A stretch of DNA of 64,000 bases from Candidatus Nomurabacteria bacterium (GCA_023267435.1 JAHFNH010000001.1:174839-238838), one strand, 5' to 3'. Counted from the stretch's first letter, positions 9,430 to 14,338 are shown. Numbers and translations are program-made. The notes: a model not told the origin generated them from the sequence alone.

Positions 9430-11046
9430 ATGAGTTTCGCAAAAGTTTATTCAGCACAAGTGAATCTACTTTCCGGAGTTATCGTGACTATCGAAGTGGA
9501 CTTGTCCCGAGGTCTTCATGCTTTCAGTATTGTCGGCTTGCCTGACAAGTCCGTCGACGAGTCTAAAGATCGCGTCAGCTCAGCTATCAAAAATTCAGGC
9601 TTTCAATCTCCTAAAGCCAAGAATCAAAAAATAATAGTTTCTTTATCACCCGCAGATCTTAAAAAAGAAGGGTCTTTTTTTGATCTCGGTATCGCACTTT
9701 CTTATATGCTTGCGGCTGGGGATTTGAAATTTAATCCGGAGAAAAAGATTTTCTTAGGTGAACTCGGGCTCGATGGCACTTTGCGCAGGATCAAAGGTGC
9801 TCTGCCTCTCGTGCAGGAGGCGAAAAGAATGGGTTTTGAAGAAGTTTATTTGCCGAAAGAAAATGCAGTCGAGGCGGCGTTGGTGGATGGGATTAAAATT
9901 TTCGGAGCAGGTAGTTTGAAAGAAGTTGTTGACCATATAGATGAAAGCAAACCTAGAAAATTTACTGATGGTCTGGCCGAGCGTACTCGCGAAGGAGAAC
10001 CGAGGACCTCAGAAAATTTTACTAGGTTTGCTGAAGAAGGAAAAATCCCCGTCCAGCCAAAAACAGAAATAAAATATGAAAAAGAAAGAAAAGGTTCCGA
10101 TTTTGCAGATGTTCGCGGACAAGAAGGTGCGAAACGTGGGCTCGAGATAGCCGCTGCCGGCGGGCATAATATAGCTATGTATGGCCCGCCGGGCACTGGC
10201 AAGACGATGCTGGCTCGAGCTTTCTCCGGACTTTTACCGGATTTAATTCTCGAAGATGTTTTGGAAATTACCGGCATACATTCTGTCGCAGGTGCGACGC
10301 GCGGAGAACTCGTTTCTAGTCCGCCTTTCCGTGCGCCACACCATACTTCGTCTTATGTTTCACTTATCGGTGGAGGAACTTTTCCAAAGCCAGGCGAAGT
10401 GACGCTCGCACATAAAGGAGTTTTATTTTTGGATGAATTTCCAGAATTTGAAAAAAGAGTTATTGAATCTTTGCGTCAGCCACTTGAAGACAATATCGTT
10501 TCGATTTCTCGCGCAAAAGGTTCGGCTATTTTTCCTTCGAATTTTATTTTAGTCGCAGCGATGAATCCGTGTCCTTGCGGAAATGCCGGCTCGAAACAAA
10601 AAGCTTGCATTTGCAAACCGTCAGACTTAGACAGATACAAAAGAAAACTTTCCGGCCCGATTATGGATCGTATTGATCTTTGGGTTTCCGTGAATAACAT
10701 TGATTACAAAAAACTTGGTGAAGACGGAATGGGGGAGAAGAGTGAAAATATAAAAGAGAGAGTCTCAAGAGCACGAGAAGTACAGAAAAATAGATTTCAG
10801 AAATTTGAAAGAACTATCAAAACAAACAGTGAGATGAATGTGAAAGATTTATCCAATATGGTGAAGCTAGCTGATGATGTTCGAAATCTTTTAGACAACA
10901 GTGCTGAAAGATTAGCCCTCTCCGCCCGTGCCTATCACCGCGTCATAAAAATAGCCCGCACGATAGCAGACCTTGAAAATTCTGAGGATATAACCTCAGC
11001 GCATATTCTCGAAGCTATACAATATCGTCCGAAAGTAAATAACTAA
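9430..11046 (+). CDS. comM: YifB/ComM-family Mg-chelatase-like AAA+ ATPase
   Basis: Lon-like N-domain, Walker A GPPGTGKT, and the MCM-like zinc insertion CPCGNAGSKQKACIC. Confidence 0.9.
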   Translation: MSFAKVYSAQVNLLSGVIVTIEVDLSRGLHAFSIVGLPDKSVDESKDRVSSAIKNSGFQSPKAKNQKIIVSLSPADLKKEGSFFDLGIALSYMLAAGDLKFNPEKKIFLGELGLDGTLRRIKGALPLVQEAKRMGFEEVYLPKENAVEAALVDGIKIFGAGSLKEVVDHIDESKPRKFTDGLAERTREGEPRTSENFTRFAEEGKIPVQPKTEIKYEKERKGSDFADVRGQEGAKRGLEIAAAGGHNIAMYGPPGTGKTMLARAFSGLLPDLILEDVLEITGIHSVAGATRGELVSSPPFRAPHHTSSYVSLIGGGTFPKPGEVTLAHKGVLFLDEFPEFEKRVIESLRQPLEDNIVSISRAKGSAIFPSNFILVAAMNPCPCGNAGSKQKACICKPSDLDRYKRKLSGPIMDRIDLWVSVNNIDYKKLGEDGMGEKSENIKERVSRAREVQKNRFQKFERTIKTNSEMNVKDLSNMVKLADDVRNLLDNSAERLALSARAYHRVIKIARTIADLENSEDITSAHILEAIQYRPKVNN

Positions 11047-11116
11047 TTTACTTGTTTCACCACAAATGATACTATCTAGATAAATAAACTTATCGTCGAA
11101 CCTTAACATAATCCTT

Positions 11117-11410
11117 ATGGAAACAAATAAACCTAAGTTACCCTTAATCTTTTTAGTGCGCAGAAAATGGAGAAATTCATTGTTTGCAGCCGGTATTCTT
11201 CATTATAAAATAGTTGGTTATAACTATATAGCTCCTGGTAGTAAAATGAGTGAGATTTCTCAAACAGGATGGATACCAATTAGACAGTATAATTTTGAAC
11301 ACCCGTATATGAAGAAAAGAATGGCGGAAGTTCAAAGGAAACAAGAAGAATGTTTAGAGCGAAAAAATGTGGACTGGGAAAGATTAAACAAAATTCGCAT
11401 AACGATTTAA
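11117..11410 (+). CDS. Hypothetical small protein
   Basis: 97-aa ORF followed by a terminator. Confidence 0.35.
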   Translation: METNKPKLPLIFLVRRKWRNSLFAAGILHYKIVGYNYIAPGSKMSEISQTGWIPIRQYNFEHPYMKKRMAEVQRKQEECLERKNVDWERLNKIRITI

Positions 11411-11420
11411 TCGTATGTGA

Positions 11421-11449
11421 AAAACCTGAGATATTCTCAGGTTTTTTTA
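11421..11449 (+). terminator. Intrinsic terminator
   Basis: Stem cctgaga/tctcagg plus a T-run. Confidence 0.65.
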
Positions 11450-11475
11450 ATTTATAGTTATCCACAACTATTTTA

Positions 11476-11504
11476 TTGACAGTGAACGAGCGTTCACTTA
11501 TACT
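11476..11504 (+). promoter_or_regulatory. Sigma70-like promoter (TTGACA-17-TATACT) with a LexA/SOS (Cheo-type) box in the spacer
   Basis: -35 TTGACA at 11476-11481, -10 TATACT at 11499-11504. The spacer contains the perfect palindrome AGTGAACGAGCGTTCACT, which includes GAAC-N4-GTTC. Confidence 0.6.
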
Positions 11505-11547
11505 ATTTATATAAGTCGAGATTAAAAATTTAACTTATAAAAATCGC

Positions 11548-11748
11548 ATGTCACAAACACAATATTTAAAATTATTAGAAAAGGAGATACAACATATCAA
11601 CAAGAAGATTGATATGAAAATAATGCAGGGAGAAGCTTATATGAAAGAGGCGAGAGATCATAAACTTCTTTTGAAAAAAGTGCGTTATCACTCTCGAAAG
11701 AGTTTCTTTAGCAGATTGTTTCCAACTTTTTTTAAATTTCAATTTTAA
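11548..11748 (+). CDS. Small basic protein, candidate SOS-regulated, co-transcribed with lexA
   Basis: 66-aa ORF between the SOS-box promoter and lexA. No homology is recognisable. Confidence 0.3.
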   Translation: MSQTQYLKLLEKEIQHINKKIDMKIMQGEAYMKEARDHKLLLKKVRYHSRKSFFSRLFPTFFKFQF

Positions 11749-11775
11749 ACTTTCTAATTTTTGTTTTAAATTTTT

Positions 11776-12342
11776 ATGCGTAATGTTTACCAAACACAAA
11801 TAGAATCTTTTTACTTGGATAATAAAAGAATGCCCACATATTCCGAAATGATGAAGCTTTTCGGATTCAAGTCAAAGAATGCTATTTTTAAAATTGTAAA
11901 CAAACTGCTCGAAGCAGGTGTCGTGGCAAAAGATCATCTTGGTAGATTGATACCGACAGAGTCTTTCGGAGAGATACCAATGCTTGGCTATGTGACGGCT
12001 GGACTGCCTGCGACTGTGGAAGAAGAATTGACTGACACAATAAAACTCGATGATCTTTTGATACAAAATAAATCTCTGACTTACATGTTGGAAGTTGATG
12101 GCGATTCGATGATCGATGCGCATATTGAAAAAGGAGATATGGTGCTCGTGGAGAAAACGAATCAAGCGAAAGATATGCAGATAGTCATCGCAGAAGTAGA
12201 TGGAGAATATACTATGAAATATTTTCGCAAAGAGGGTAATAAAGTCTGGCTCGAACCAGCTAATAAAAAATACAGTCCGATCTATCCCGAAAATAGTTTG
12301 AATGTCATTGCGGTCTTAAAAGCAGTAATCAGAAAATACTAA
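11776..12342 (+). CDS. lexA: LexA repressor (S24 peptidase)
   Basis: N-terminal wHTH. The catalytic Ser is in VDGDSM and the Lys in MKYF. The length and layout are typical of LexA. Confidence 0.85.
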   Translation: MRNVYQTQIESFYLDNKRMPTYSEMMKLFGFKSKNAIFKIVNKLLEAGVVAKDHLGRLIPTESFGEIPMLGYVTAGLPATVEEELTDTIKLDDLLIQNKSLTYMLEVDGDSMIDAHIEKGDMVLVEKTNQAKDMQIVIAEVDGEYTMKYFRKEGNKVWLEPANKKYSPIYPENSLNVIAVLKAVIRKY

Positions 12343-12356
12343 ATATAAAAATAGGT

Positions 12357-12394
12357 AAAACAAAAGCCACCCGAAGGTGGCTTTTGTTTTTTAT
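12357..12394. terminator. Bidirectional intrinsic terminator (lexA / hup)
   Basis: Stem aaagccacc/ggtggcttt flanked by A- and T-runs. Confidence 0.7.
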
Positions 12395-12408
12395 CTCGAG
12401 ATAAAATA

Positions 12409-12681
12409 TTATTCTACTGCGTCCTTCAAAGCTTTTGCAGCTCTGAATTTTGGAACTTTCTTAGCAGCTACTTTAACTTGCTCTCCAGTCTTTGGATTGC
12501 GAGCCATTCTAGCAGCTCTTGCCTTTACGGAAAAGATTCCGAATCCAGCAATTGATACATCTTCACCCTTTTTCATTGTTCCAACGATACCATCAAAGAT
12601 CGCATCGACGATTTCTTCAGCTTGTACTTTTGTACCGCCTAATTTTGCTTGTACTAATTCAACTAATGCTTGTTTATTCAT
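12409..12681 (-). CDS. hup: HU-family DNA-binding protein
   Basis: 90 aa with the typical HU sequence GFGIFSVKARAARMARNPKTGE. Confidence 0.9.
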   Translation of the reverse strand: MNKQALVELVQAKLGGTKVQAEEIVDAIFDGIVGTMKKGEDVSIAGFGIFSVKARAARMARNPKTGEQVKVAAKKVPKFRAAKALKDAVE

Positions 12682-12878
12682 ATTATTTTTTATATTAATT
12701 AAAATTTAATTGGTAATATTTCGACCTCTTTTTATAAAATAACTACGTATATATTATATACTAAGGGTTTTTTAAGGCAATAGCTTGCGCAAGTTATAAA
12801 TTTATTGATTAATTAATTTTTCTGTGGTAGATTTTGGGCAGATAAATAAAGTTATTCACAATTTTAAACCTTACTATT

Positions 12879-13976
12879 ATGCCGACAATTCAAAAAAAGG
12901 TGGAAGAAATAACCACTAGGCAGGAATTCAATGAATTTCTGCAAGAATGCCAGAAAAACCATAGCATGCCTTATGCTTACGCTAAAGGAGAGGGATTTTA
13001 CGAAGATAATAAACTTATTGCTGTCCGTTGGTTGTCTATTAACGTACAAAAGAATGATGATTTTCTTTCCAATTTAAAGGACAAAAATTCTAATTTTAAC
13101 GAAAAGATCACTAAACCAACCCTTATTTGTTTGAATGAAAATGAAACAATAGGAGAAGCTGTTTGTCGTGAAATTTACTCACCTTTTACAGAAGAAGATT
13201 GCTCTATTATTATGTTATATCCAACAAAGGAATCATTAACGGAAAAAGCACCCACCACAGCTGAAGATGCATTTTGCCGGCTTACCATGATTTCGCGCCT
13301 GGAGTTCAAACCGAATGAATTGAATTTGGATAACATTTTTTCTTTGCTTCCGACTTTAGTTTGGACAATGAAAGGAGTAATGACAGAAGATACATGGAAA
13401 AATGAATTCATGAAAAATAACGTCATTCAACCAATTGCAGTGGATAAGTTTCCCCCTATGTATTGGGGCGCTCCAATACCGAAAGGTGTGCGCATTGCAG
13501 ATCCTTCTCGTGTGCGCTTGGGAGCTTATCTTTCATCTGGGACCACGGTCATGCATGAGGGTTTTGTAAACTTTAATGCCGGCACTTTAGGAGCTTGCAT
13601 GGTTGAGGGCAGGATTTCTGCTGGTGTGGTAGTGGGTAAAGATTCAGATTTGGGCGGAGGATGTTCGATTATGGGCACACTTTCCGGCGGTGGAAAAGAA
13701 AAAATAACCATTGGAGAAAATTGCTTGATCGGAGCTAATGCTGGCACTGGAATTTCACTTGGAGATCGCTGTACGATAGAAGCAGGTTTGTATGTCACGG
13801 TTGGAATGAAAATATTTGTTTCGTCTTCACGTTTTGGTTTTGGTGAAAAAAATTATGTGAATGCGTCCGAACTTTCCGGAAAAACTGATATGCTTTTGCG
13901 TAGAGATTCCCATTCTGGTGTAGTAGAATTGCTTTGGAACGAAAAGCCGAACAAGCTCAACAAAGTTCTTCATTAA
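12879..13976 (+). CDS. Hexapeptide-repeat acyltransferase, DapD-like (tetrahydrodipicolinate N-succinyltransferase, long actinobacterial-type form)
   Basis: Left-handed beta-helix region VRLGAYLSSGTTVMHEGFVNFNAGTLGACMVEGRISAGVVVG recalls long-form DapD. Confidence 0.55.
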   Translation: MPTIQKKVEEITTRQEFNEFLQECQKNHSMPYAYAKGEGFYEDNKLIAVRWLSINVQKNDDFLSNLKDKNSNFNEKITKPTLICLNENETIGEAVCREIYSPFTEEDCSIIMLYPTKESLTEKAPTTAEDAFCRLTMISRLEFKPNELNLDNIFSLLPTLVWTMKGVMTEDTWKNEFMKNNVIQPIAVDKFPPMYWGAPIPKGVRIADPSRVRLGAYLSSGTTVMHEGFVNFNAGTLGACMVEGRISAGVVVGKDSDLGGGCSIMGTLSGGGKEKITIGENCLIGANAGTGISLGDRCTIEAGLYVTVGMKIFVSSSRFGFGEKNYVNASELSGKTDMLLRRDSHSGVVELLWNEKPNKLNKVLH

Positions 13977-14071: not shown

Positions 14072-14338
14072 TTAAGACTGAACATTTTTTGAAAAATAAT
14101 CTTTCAATCTCATTTTAAACATTCTTCTACCGATACTCGTTTTTAAATACTTTTCTCTACGTCTAGCATCAGACTCTAGTAAACACGCTTCGTAGTATAT
14201 TATTTTCCAAGGTCTGTATGGTTTGGTAGAAATGTTCAGTCCATTGTTATGTTCTTGAAGGCGTCGTTTAAGATCGTTCGTATATCCGAAGTATAATCTA
14301 CCAGTTTCTTTACTTTCAAGACTATAAACGTAGAACAT
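14072..14338 (-). CDS. GIY-YIG nuclease-domain protein (UPF0213-like)
   Basis: YVYSLESKETGRLYFGYTNDLKRRLQEHN is a GIY-YIG signature. Confidence 0.75.
   Translation of the reverse strand: MFYVYSLESKETGRLYFGYTNDLKRRLQEHNNGLNISTKPYRPWKIIYYEACLLESDARRREKYLKTSIGRRMFKMRLKDYFSKNVQS

What the first reader, a model, noticed from the sequence alone, without database searches (positions are those of the whole stretch)
11476..11775. Textbook SOS promoter with a LexA box in the spacer, driving a small ORF plus lexA
TTGACA-17-TATACT has perfect -35 and near-perfect -10 elements. Its 17-nt spacer contains the perfect palindrome AGTGAACGAGCGTTCACT at 11483-11498, which matches the GAAC-N4-GTTC LexA (Cheo) box of Firmicutes and relatives. 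It sits 270 bp upstream of lexA. A 66-aa basic ORF (11548..11748) lies between them. That ORF would be the first SOS-induced product and is a candidate SulA/YneA-like damage-inducible small protein. It shows that this lineage keeps a Gram-positive-type LexA regulon, and the operator sequence can be used to define that regulon.
Basis: partly seen in the sequence, partly recalled or inferred. Interest (0 to 1): 0.5.

Follow-up and report, generated by a model that had tools for sequence, protein, structure and literature searches.

The report
LexA-repressed promoter for a two-gene lexA operon
This is the self-repressed DNA-damage (SOS) promoter of a Nomurabacteria (candidate phyla radiation) lexA operon; its type is ordinary, but it always carries a replication-initiator (DnaA) box and an uncharacterised small protein gene found only next to lexA.

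Summary
TTGACA (11476-11481), a 17-nt spacer and TATACT (11499-11504) enclose GTGAACGAGCGTTCAC (11482-11497). This is an 8+8 inverted repeat with a non-palindromic AG centre, so it is not a perfect palindrome.

One GAAC-N4-GTTC in 64 kb is what chance gives. Conservation carries the argument: the -35/operator/-10 block is present in 80 of 80 orthologous loci and 7 of 7 distant ones.

The 66-aa ORF is a real gene under purifying selection. It sits between promoter and lexA in 81 of 81 loci and often overlaps lexA by 8 nt. It belongs to an unnamed family (292 clusters) that was next to a LexA-like gene in all 8 distant loci.

It is a very basic helical hairpin with a short hydrophobic tail. It has no transmembrane segment, no LysM domain and no SulA, YneA, DinI or Sda similarity. 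The division-inhibitor idea is therefore untested and structurally unsupported.

It is exact in 76 of 81 loci. It occurs with the small gene and not at lexA promoters that lack it.

No other operator lies in the window, so the regulon remains undefined.

The parts
11419..11447 (+). Intrinsic terminator of the upstream, window-specific orf97. It marks the 5' boundary of the transcription unit.
   Evidence: 13-pair stem, 3-nt loop, T-run. orf97 is absent from the 80 related loci.
11458..11466 (+). Consensus DnaA box TTATCCACA (extended AGTTATCCACAA, 11456-11467). It lies 9 nt upstream of the -35, about -53 to -45 relative to the inferred start.
   Evidence: It is the only exact copy in the 64-kb window. 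It is exact in 76 of 81 orthologous promoters and one mismatch off in the other 5, always on the same strand and 7-10 nt from the -35. Only 5 other copies occur in 481 kb. It matches at 8/9 or better in 12 of 13 distant small-ORF/lexA promoters and in 0 of 10 lexA promoters without the small ORF. DnaA binding itself is inferred.
11476..11481 (+). -35 hexamer TTGACA
   Evidence: TTGACA in 80 of 81 loci.
11482..11497 (.). Predicted LexA operator GTGAACGAGCGTTCAC (GAAC-N4-GTTC core 11484-11495; inverted repeat 11481-11498). It fills the promoter spacer.
   Evidence: It is present in 81 of 81 close loci and 7 of 7 distant loci. The central dinucleotide is AG or its complement CT, as expected for a site read by a symmetric dimer.
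11499..11504 (+). -10 hexamer TATACT
   Evidence: TATACT in 76 of 81 loci.
11505..11547 (+). Inferred transcription start (about 11511) and short, unstructured 5' UTR without a clear Shine-Dalgarno sequence. It contains AAGTCG at 11514-11519.
   Evidence: No Rfam family reaches its threshold. Fold z-score is -0.59. UTR length ranges from 6 to 144 nt among orthologues, and two are leaderless. An RGTCR motif occurs in 50 of 78 UTRs against 6% of shuffles.
11548..11748 (+). Gene for a 66-aa basic helical-hairpin protein of an unnamed family linked to lexA.
   Evidence: 242 close homologues and 292 clusters at 50% identity by profile search. Codon-position divergence is 0.175/0.132/0.479. AlphaFold2 pLDDT is 83.6 with helices 3-27 and 32-63. 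No hit in Pfam, NCBIfam, PHROGs or the PDB.
11776..12342 (+). lexA (188 aa): winged-helix N-terminal domain plus S24 autopeptidase domain.
   Evidence: TIGR00498 125.1 bits against a cut-off of 110.95. Peptidase_S24 E = 1.7e-28. It aligns to E. coli LexA including VTAG/VAAG, GDSM/GMSM and TMKYF/TVKRL. The residues are Ala75-Gly76, Ser111 and Lys148.
12357..12390 (.). Terminator hairpin shared between lexA (+) and the convergent HU gene (-). It marks the 3' boundary of the operon.
   Evidence: 15-pair stem, reported on the - strand. U/A runs lie on both sides in the sequence.

Best explanation
The region is the single promoter of a two-gene operon (small gene, then lexA) in a Nomurabacteria (Paceibacterota, candidate phyla radiation) chromosome.

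Shown:
- A near-consensus sigma-70 promoter has its 17-nt spacer filled by a 16-bp GTGAAC-N4-GTTCAC dyad of the Firmicutes/Actinobacteria LexA type.
- The promoter, the dyad, the small gene and lexA are conserved as one block in every related locus examined.
- The LexA has all the autocleavage residues.

Inferred:
- A LexA dimer on the dyad covers both the -35 and -10 contacts and blocks RNA polymerase.
- After DNA damage, RecA-stimulated self-cleavage of LexA frees the promoter. The small protein and new LexA are then made together, often by translational coupling. The response therefore produces its own shut-off.
- A consensus DnaA box at about -53 to -45, where an upstream-bound factor could touch RNA polymerase, lets the replication initiator DnaA also tune this promoter. 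Output would then report replication status as well as damage. The direction of that effect, activation or repression, is unknown.
- The small protein is a soluble, strongly basic two-helix hairpin with a short hydrophobic C-terminal peptide. It is most likely the effector or partner that this circuit exists to deliver: a damage/replication-stress protein acting by binding a protein or nucleic acid. It is not a membrane-anchored division inhibitor of the YneA/SosA type.
For: Promoter and box.

Conservation: 80 of 80 orthologous loci with diverged flanks, and 7 of 7 distant loci with GC 36-46% and no shared synteny.

Motif type: GAAC-N4-GTTC is the LexA motif of Firmicutes and Actinobacteria (PMC4951493).

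LexA identity.

Operon structure:
- Flanking terminators.
- The small ORF lies between promoter and lexA in 81 of 81 loci.
- The gap between its stop and the lexA ATG is -8 nt in 31 of 81 loci and 0-104 nt in most others.
- Two loci have leaderless starts 6 nt after the -10.

The small ORF is coding: third-position divergence is 0.479 against 0.175 and 0.132 at positions 1 and 2.

Family breadth and linkage: 292 clusters. All 8 distant members looked up lie next to a Peptidase_S24 gene. Three more were found through the operator scan.

DNA-repair company: an Ogt-like gene (L082), UDG (L083), and NUDIX-NUDIX-RarA-YgjP-DinB (L088).

DnaA box. Tandem boxes occur in L087 and L186. The consensus TTATCCACA and DnaA acting as a transcription factor are described in PMC8203912. 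E. coli DnaA and LexA co-regulate uvrB, recN and dinJ (PMC6015884).

Fold and lack of a membrane segment.
Against: - No binding or expression data exist for LexA or for DnaA.
- The box occurs once in the window, which is the chance expectation, and no second target was found there. A regulon beyond autoregulation is therefore not shown.
- The LexA N-terminal domain matches Pfam LexA_DNA_bind only weakly (E = 0.063).
- Most loci have a single DnaA box, whereas DnaA often acts through several.
- One small-ORF locus (L165) has no box within 60 nt. L088 has the reverse gene order and no GAAC-N4-GTTC.
- That these organisms' DnaA recognises TTATCCACA could not be checked, because no dnaA or oriC locus was obtainable.
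- The small protein's function rests on context only.
Confidence: 0.7

Rival explanations
1. The small protein is a dedicated partner of LexA rather than a downstream effector. It would bind LexA, or LexA-bound DNA, and modulate operator binding or self-cleavage as a co-repressor, anti-repressor or cleavage modulator.
For: The gene sits next to a LexA-like gene in every locus examined, including distant lineages with no other shared synteny. An 8-nt overlap, or a gap of 0-3 nt, in many loci suggests coupled, stoichiometric synthesis. The family was seen only beside lexA. High positive charge (+9) would suit DNA contact.
Against: The gap is not fixed (up to 104 nt in close loci, 123-195 nt in L081, L083 and L085). 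LexA proteins elsewhere need no partner. At least one CPR-like lexA promoter (L206) has no small gene. No interaction was modelled or measured.
Confidence: 0.3
2. One reading: the small protein is the SOS cell-division inhibitor of this lineage, a functional analogue of SulA, YneA or SosA.
For: It would be de-repressed with the SOS response and lies next to lexA. Unrelated Gram-positive division inhibitors also lie next to lexA (PMC6851548). Such inhibitors are small and poorly conserved between groups.
Against: It has no transmembrane segment: the median uncharged C-terminal run is 7 residues, and the body is a charged hairpin. It has no LysM or SulA domain. A profile search of the PDB at E up to 10 returned only three marginal, unrelated chains. 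The gene is co-directional and upstream of lexA, not divergent. The DnaA box points to replication as much as to division.
Confidence: 0.2
3. The conserved AGTTATCCACAG element is not a DnaA site. It would be the target of another regulator, possibly the small protein itself, or a promoter-proximal element for RNA polymerase.
For: Mostly a single 9-mer. No DnaA data exist for this phylum (searches found no literature). The element co-occurs with the small gene, which would also fit autoregulation by that protein.
Against: It is identical to the canonical DnaA box over all 9 positions in 76 of 81 loci plus most distant loci. The site is asymmetric with a fixed orientation, typical of monomeric DnaA domain IV recognition rather than a small dimer. 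It occurs as head-to-tail tandems in L087 and L186. It is too G/C-containing and too sequence-specific for an UP element.
Confidence: 0.25
4. The S24 gene and small gene form a prophage or mobile-element repressor module (CI-like), and the dyad is its operator rather than an SOS box.
For: LexA also matches phage S24 families (PHROG UmuD-like and repressor families).
Against: Synteny is stable (DksA-like, ComM, small gene, lexA, HU, RNase Y) across dozens of genomes. The protein passes the LexA equivalog cut-off. The small protein has no PHROG hit and no relative in 2.9 million viral contigs.
Confidence: 0.03

Closest known systems
Autoregulated lexA promoters with the Firmicutes/Actinobacteria LexA (Cheo/SOS) box GAAC-N4-GTTC
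   Same: Same dyad core, same logic (operator overlapping the -35/-10 of lexA's own promoter), and the same LexA chemistry (Ala-Gly site, Ser/Lys dyad). The identical TTGACA / GTGAAC-N4-GTTCAC / TATAAT layout also turned up in unrelated higher-GC metagenome contigs with lexA directly downstream.
   Different: Here lexA is the second gene. A conserved small gene comes first, and a DnaA box precedes the -35. Neither feature is present at the 10 comparison lexA promoters. The SOS network of Patescibacteria was analysed by Sanchez-Osuna, Barbe and Erill (Environ Microbiol 2017, cited in PMC8565304). That paper is not in the library, so I could not check what it reports about this motif or operon.
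SOS cell-division inhibitors encoded next to lexA (YneA, SosA, ChiZ, DivS; SulA in E. coli)
   Same: Small, LexA-controlled, lineage-specific, and physically linked to lexA (PMC6851548).
   Different: Those are divergently transcribed, single-pass membrane proteins with an extracellular C-terminus and usually a LysM domain. This protein is co-transcribed upstream of lexA, soluble, highly basic, all-helical, and has no LysM or SulA similarity.
DnaA/LexA dual control of SOS genes in E. coli (uvrB, recN, dinJ)
   Same: A DnaA box and a LexA box in one promoter region, coupling replication status and the damage response (PMC6015884).
   Different: In E. coli the boxes overlap or lie around the start site, and lexA itself is not the reported target. 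Here the box lies upstream of the -35 of the lexA operon itself, is conserved across a whole lineage, and tracks the presence of the small gene.
Sda of Bacillus subtilis (DnaA-controlled replication checkpoint protein)
   Same: A very small helical-hairpin protein whose promoter carries DnaA boxes and which relays replication trouble to another process (PMC8203912).
   Different: No sequence similarity: neither the profile search nor the structural search of the PDB returned Sda. There is no sporulation phosphorelay in these organisms. Sda is not in a lexA operon. The resemblance is in logic only.

Membership tests
LexA-autoregulated SOS promoter (GAAC-N4-GTTC type) | Inverted repeat matching GAAC-N4-GTTC | tested here: met
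   GAACGAGCGTTC at 11484-11495. Extended consensus GTGAAC-N4-GTTCAC from 88 loci.
LexA-autoregulated SOS promoter (GAAC-N4-GTTC type) | Operator overlaps core promoter elements of the regulated gene | tested here: met
   It fills the 17-nt spacer between TTGACA and TATACT. The spacer is 17 nt in 55 loci and 18 nt in 26.
LexA-autoregulated SOS promoter (GAAC-N4-GTTC type) | Site conserved in orthologous lexA promoters | tested here: met
   80 of 80 close and 7 of 7 distant loci, with unconserved flanks.
LexA-autoregulated SOS promoter (GAAC-N4-GTTC type) | Downstream regulator is a true LexA (wHTH plus S24 domain with Ala-Gly, Ser, Lys) | tested here: met
   TIGR00498 125.1 bits against 110.95. 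Alignment to E. coli LexA. Residues A75-G76, S111, K148. The Pfam DNA-binding-domain match is weak (E = 0.063).
LexA-autoregulated SOS promoter (GAAC-N4-GTTC type) | LexA binds the site; transcription is induced by DNA damage | not testable with these tools
   Needs EMSA or footprinting and expression data.
LexA-autoregulated SOS promoter (GAAC-N4-GTTC type) | Same box upstream of other SOS genes (a regulon) | tested here: inconclusive
   There is no second site in the window, even at 3 mismatches, and none at the GIY-YIG gene. No RecA, UvrA, UvrB or Y-family polymerase signature motif was found in the window's ORFs. A metagenome scan that excluded the common lexA-promoter layout gave one UmuD-like target (L167) and one RhuM-like target (L089) in low-GC contigs among many unrelated hits.
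YneA/SosA/ChiZ/DivS-type SOS division inhibitor | Single transmembrane segment with extracellular C-terminus | tested here: not met
   The AlphaFold2 model is a charged two-helix hairpin. The uncharged C-terminal run has a median of 7 residues over 157 family members. The window tail SFFSRLFPTFFKFQF contains R and K.
YneA/SosA/ChiZ/DivS-type SOS division inhibitor | LysM domain (YneA, ChiZ) | tested here: not met
   No Pfam family for the window protein (only a sub-threshold Vps23_core hit) or for 48 family members.
YneA/SosA/ChiZ/DivS-type SOS division inhibitor | Encoded next to lexA under a LexA box | tested here: met
   It is adjacent, but co-directional and upstream in the same operon rather than divergent (PMC6851548 for the known layout).
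YneA/SosA/ChiZ/DivS-type SOS division inhibitor | Blocks division when expressed | not testable with these tools
   Needs expression experiments.
SulA family | Sequence or fold homology to SulA | tested here: not met
   No Pfam, NCBIfam or PDB-profile hit. Foldseek against the PDB gave only generic helical hairpins, none with E below 1.
DnaA-regulated promoter | 9-mer matching TTATCCACA near the promoter | tested here: met
   An exact match at 11458-11466, the only one in the window.
DnaA-regulated promoter | Box conserved in position and orientation across orthologues | tested here: met
   76 of 81 exact and 5 of 81 with one mismatch, 7-10 nt from the -35. 12 of 13 distant loci match at 8/9 or better.
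DnaA-regulated promoter | DnaA of this organism recognises this sequence (for example, clustered boxes at its oriC) and binds here | not testable with these tools
   No dnaA or oriC locus of this lineage could be fetched. No DnaA Walker motif occurs in the window. No literature was found.
Phage CI-like repressor module | Located in a mobile element or has phage relatives | tested here: not met
   Chromosomal synteny is conserved. The small protein has no viral-contig relatives and no PHROG hit.

The most novel reading that the evidence does not exclude
In this large group of minimal-genome candidate-phyla-radiation bacteria, the replication initiator DnaA and the damage repressor LexA converge on one promoter. 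That promoter's first product is a previously undescribed, lineage-wide 60-75-aa helical-hairpin protein. The protein would be either a new kind of SOS/replication checkpoint effector or an obligatory LexA partner. The core of the SOS circuit in these organisms would then be a three-component module (DnaA box, small protein, LexA) rather than LexA alone.
Probability: 0.35. Interest if true: 0.7.

Novelty: new variant of a known kind. Interest (0 to 1): 0.5.

Why it matters
The promoter itself is a textbook case and confirms that Nomurabacteria-type Patescibacteria use the ancestral GAAC-N4-GTTC LexA motif. A 16-bp consensus (GTGAAC-N4-GTTCAC) built from about 90 independent promoters is now available for scanning genomes.

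Two features go beyond the textbook.

- **An unnamed small protein family.** At least 292 sequence clusters exist. In every locus examined the gene sits beside lexA, usually ahead of it and often translationally coupled. This makes it the best candidate for a lineage-specific SOS effector or LexA cofactor in organisms that cannot yet be grown alone.
- **A consensus DnaA box fixed just upstream of the -35.** It co-occurs with that small gene. This suggests damage sensing and replication-status sensing are wired into a single promoter.

Both are directly testable in vitro with three small recombinant proteins and a 90-bp DNA fragment.

Tried and rejected
- **Chance test.** The bare motif in the window is not significant. 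The argument therefore rests on conservation.
- **Regulon inside the window.** There is no second operator, and no RecA, UvrA, UvrB, DinB or DnaA signature motifs in its ORFs.
- **Extending the window.** One edge protein was not on record. The other returned gene calls without DNA and with no repair genes.
- **Metagenome scan.** I used GTGAACGNNCGTTCACNM, designed to skip the common lexA-promoter layout. These were mostly unrelated high-GC sequence or further lexA promoters, with only two possible non-lexA targets.
- **Known-family searches for the small protein.** Pfam, NCBIfam, PHROGs, a PDB sequence profile and Foldseek against the PDB gave nothing meaningful. The top structural hits are generic hairpins (SSV1 D-63, the seryl-tRNA synthetase arm, designed proteins).
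- **Taxonomy of distant family members.** Cluster look-up gave no names.
- **RNA explanations.** No Rfam family reaches threshold and the UTR is unstructured. The dyad was flagged as 'terminator-like', but it lies upstream of the inferred start and just after a real terminator, so I rejected an attenuator reading.
- **The 2017 Patescibacteria SOS paper.** It could not be read, so overlap with prior work is uncertain.
- **Complex model of the small protein with LexA.** Not attempted. The tool folds single chains, and paired alignments from other loci are not admissible.

Full report
**1. What is in the sequence**

The region reads, 5' to 3':
- a strong intrinsic terminator (11419-11447);
- AGTTATCCACAA (11456-11467);
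- nine bases, then TTGACA (11476-11481);
- GTGAACGAGCGTTCAC plus T (11482-11498);
- TATACT (11499-11504);
- a 43-nt A/T-rich stretch, then an ATG at 11548 opening a 66-codon ORF that stops at 11748;
- 27 nt, then a 188-codon ORF (11776-12342);
- a 15-pair terminator hairpin (12357-12390), shared with a convergent HU gene.

The promoter scan ranks TTGACA-17-TATACT first in the region at 11 of 12 matches. Two details are not. The 18-mer spans 11481-11498, and the repeat is 8+8 around a non-palindromic AG, so it is not a perfect palindrome.

**2. Is it more than chance?**

On its own, no. GAAC-N4-GTTC occurs once in the window against 0.8 expected. Relaxing GTGAACGNNCGTTCAC to three mismatches finds nothing else.

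The decisive evidence is comparative. A scan of one genome per species found 236 relatives of the downstream protein. The best 80 loci were fetched; they are 75-94% identical at the protein level and nearly all are labelled Nomurabacteria, Paceibacterota or Patescibacteria.

- Every one has GTGAACG-NN-CGTTCAC about 240-400 nt upstream of lexA.
- The dyad is set between TTGACA (80 of 81) and TATACT (76 of 81), with a 17- or 18-nt spacer.
- Sequence on either side of this block is not alignable.
- In 481 kb of these loci only two other GAAC-N4-GTTC occur.
- The central dinucleotide is AG in some loci and CT, its reverse complement, in others. The site can therefore be flipped relative to the promoter, as expected if a symmetric dimer reads it.

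**3. The regulator**

The 188-aa product passes the NCBIfam LexA equivalog model (125.1 bits, cut-off 110.95). It has a Peptidase_S24 domain (E = 1.7e-28). It aligns to E. coli LexA from the winged helix through the catalytic core. The cleavage site is Ala75-Gly76, the nucleophile is Ser111 and the general base is Lys148.

The Pfam DNA-binding-domain match is weak (E = 0.063), so the recognition helix has diverged. GAAC-N4-GTTC is the established LexA motif of Firmicutes and Actinobacteria and is thought to be ancestral (PMC4951493).

A prophage-repressor reading is unlikely. The neighbourhood (DksA-like, ComM, small gene, lexA, HU, RNase Y) is stable across dozens of genomes.

**4. The small ORF is a real gene tied to lexA**

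- It has 242 close homologues, all unnamed.
- It is present between promoter and lexA in 81 of 81 loci, at 62-75 aa.
- Pairwise divergence by codon position over its first 47 codons is 0.175, 0.132 and 0.479. This is the signature of purifying selection on a protein.
- Its stop overlaps the lexA ATG by 8 nt in 31 of 81 loci and lies 0-20 nt away in most others.
- In L001 and L056 its ATG begins 6 nt after the -10. That mRNA would be leaderless, which ties this promoter directly to this ORF.

An exhaustive profile search found 292 clusters at 50% identity, almost all 60-75 aa. The shared signature is M-S/T-x-x-Q-Y...E...LN..ID.KI..G..Y..EAR.HK.LL, followed by a basic linker and a short hydrophobic, aromatic C-terminus.

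Eight distant members on long contigs were looked up. These have GC 36-46% and no shared synteny with the window or with each other. All eight lie beside a Peptidase_S24 gene of 170-210 aa.

- Seven have the order small gene then lexA.
- L088 has lexA, small gene, NUDIX, NUDIX, RarA, YgjP, DinB.
- In L082 an Ogt-like gene follows lexA. In L083 a uracil-DNA glycosylase does.

The pair therefore travels together and keeps DNA-repair company. No relative exists in 2.9 million viral contigs.

**5. What the small protein looks like**

AlphaFold2, run with a 35-sequence alignment, gives a confident two-helix hairpin (pLDDT 83.6; helices 3-27 and 32-63). Structural neighbours in the PDB are generic hairpins with E above 1.

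There is no Pfam hit for the window protein or for 48 family members. NCBIfam, PHROGs and a PDB sequence profile also give nothing. That profile search at E up to 10 returned only three marginal, unrelated chains.

The protein is strongly basic (+9; family median +8). Its uncharged C-terminal run has a median of only 7 residues, which is too short for a membrane span.

The defining features of the Gram-positive SOS division inhibitors are divergent transcription from lexA, a single transmembrane segment, an extracellular C-terminus and usually a LysM domain (PMC6851548). Apart from proximity to lexA, none of these is met. 'SulA/YneA-like' is at most a functional guess. An effector or LexA-partner role fits the context equally well or better.

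**6.

Nine bases upstream of the -35 lies TTATCCACA (11458-11466), the canonical DnaA box (PMC8203912). It is the only exact copy in the window.

- It is exact in 76 of 81 orthologous promoters and one mismatch off in the other five.
- It is always on the same strand and 7-10 nt from the -35.
- Only five other copies occur in 481 kb. From base composition I estimate roughly six copies by chance.
- The bases between the box and the -35 are not conserved.

In distant lineages the box persists as TTATCCACA, CTATCCACA or TTTTCCACA in 12 of 13 small-gene/lexA promoters. It is sometimes tandem (L087, L186) or abuts the -35 (L087, L196).

None of 10 lexA promoters that use the same operator layout but lack the small gene has better than a 6/9 match. 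The box therefore tracks the small gene, not lexA as such.

If transcription starts about 7 nt after the -10, the box sits at -53 to -45. From there an upstream-bound factor could contact RNA polymerase.

DnaA acting with LexA on SOS promoters is documented for E. coli uvrB, recN and dinJ (PMC6015884). DnaA control of the small hairpin checkpoint protein Sda is documented in B. subtilis (PMC8203912). That DnaA binds here, and with what sign, is inference. I could not retrieve a dnaA or oriC locus of this lineage to confirm its box consensus.

**7. Regulon**

The window holds no second operator and no RecA, UvrA, UvrB or DinB signature motifs.

It returned the following:
- mostly unrelated high-GC sequence;
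- further lexA promoters, which shows that the TTGACA/operator/TATAAT design is widespread outside this phylum, often with a second operator;
- two possible extra targets in low-GC contigs: a UmuD-like S24-only gene (L167), and a RhuM-like gene preceded by the operator and two TTATCCAC boxes (L089).

The regulon therefore remains undefined.

**8. Other checks**

No Rfam family reaches threshold in 10800-12900, and the 5' UTR is not structured. The UTR varies from 6 to 144 nt among orthologues, and the long ones contain recurrent GC-rich palindromic inserts. A short RGTCR motif near the inferred start is enriched, in 50 of 78 UTRs against 6% of shuffles, and is unexplained.

**9. Verdict**

The promoter type is already known, and the SOS network of Patescibacteria has been studied before (Sanchez-Osuna et al. 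2017; not readable here).

Two things raise it above ordinary. The small gene belongs to a broad, unnamed protein family that lies beside lexA in every locus examined. A consensus DnaA box is fixed at this promoter and co-occurs with that gene.

I rate it a new variant of a known kind, with moderate interest (0.5). The bolder reading is a DnaA/LexA dual-input module delivering a new checkpoint or LexA-partner protein. I give that about 0.35 probability.

Noticed in passing
L003, L006, L013, L028, L033, L048, L067, L075 (5' UTR between -10 and small-gene ATG); also L005/L008/L039/L047/L051/L052/L060/L062/L071 and L036/L058/L065/L070: The 5' UTR of the operon ranges from 6 to 144 nt among orthologues. 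The long versions carry at least three recurrent GC-rich palindromic inserts, for example TACCCCTACCCAGCCTCCCCCTA...TAGGGGGAGG...GGAGGGGGTA. They look like small mobile repeat elements landing in the same spot.
   Followed up: no
window 11514-11519 (AAGTCG); first 35 nt after the -10 in 50 of 78 related loci: A short RGTCR motif (AAGTCG or AGGTCA), sometimes in the loop of a small hairpin whose stem shows compensatory differences between loci (TGACC..GGTCA against TAGCC..GGCTA). It is enriched near the inferred transcription start, at 64% against 6% in shuffles. Its role is unknown.
   Followed up: partly
window 11117-11410 (orf97), 12879-13976 (hexapeptide transferase), 14072-14338 (GIY-YIG): These three genes are absent from the corresponding positions in the 80 related loci. 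There ComM is followed, directly or after other variable sequence, by the promoter, and HU by RNase Y, sometimes after variable inserts. They look like window-specific insertions into a conserved backbone. orf97 has no family hit.
   Followed up: partly
L088 2339-6201: A distant family member sits in the reverse order inside a long repair-type gene string: lexA-like (210 aa), small gene, NUDIX, NUDIX, MgsA/RarA, YgjP-like, Y-family polymerase. No GAAC-N4-GTTC lies upstream, so this LexA may use a different operator.
   Followed up: partly
L082 3206-4099; L083 3310-4508: In two distant loci lexA is followed at close range by a DNA-repair gene on the same strand: an Ogt-like PF01035 protein in L082 and a uracil-DNA glycosylase in L083.
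   Followed up: no
L167 11736-12077; L089 2850-3093: The same operator sits in promoter-like contexts in front of non-lexA genes in low-GC contigs. One is a UmuD-like S24-only ORF lacking the GDSM motif (L167). The other is a RhuM-like N-terminus preceded by two TTATCCAC boxes (L089).
   Followed up: partly
L100 10802-10844, L132 1009-1060, L161 8038-8090, L181 12553-12610: Higher-GC, apparently non-CPR contigs carry the same TTGACA / GTGAAC-N4-GTTCAC / TATAxT promoter with a second operator copy a few bases downstream of the -10. Other higher-GC contigs with this layout have lexA directly after the promoter. The design is widespread beyond this lineage.
   Followed up: no
L206 (operator at 353; TGTGGATAA about 40 nt downstream of the -10): This CPR-like lexA promoter lacks both the small gene and the upstream DnaA box. 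It has a reversed DnaA-box sequence in a 287-nt repeat-rich leader.
   Followed up: no
window 11539-11547 and 11767-11775: Neither the small gene nor lexA has a recognisable Shine-Dalgarno sequence upstream of its ATG (AAAAATCGC-ATG; AAATTTTT-ATG). Two orthologous operons appear leaderless.
   Followed up: no
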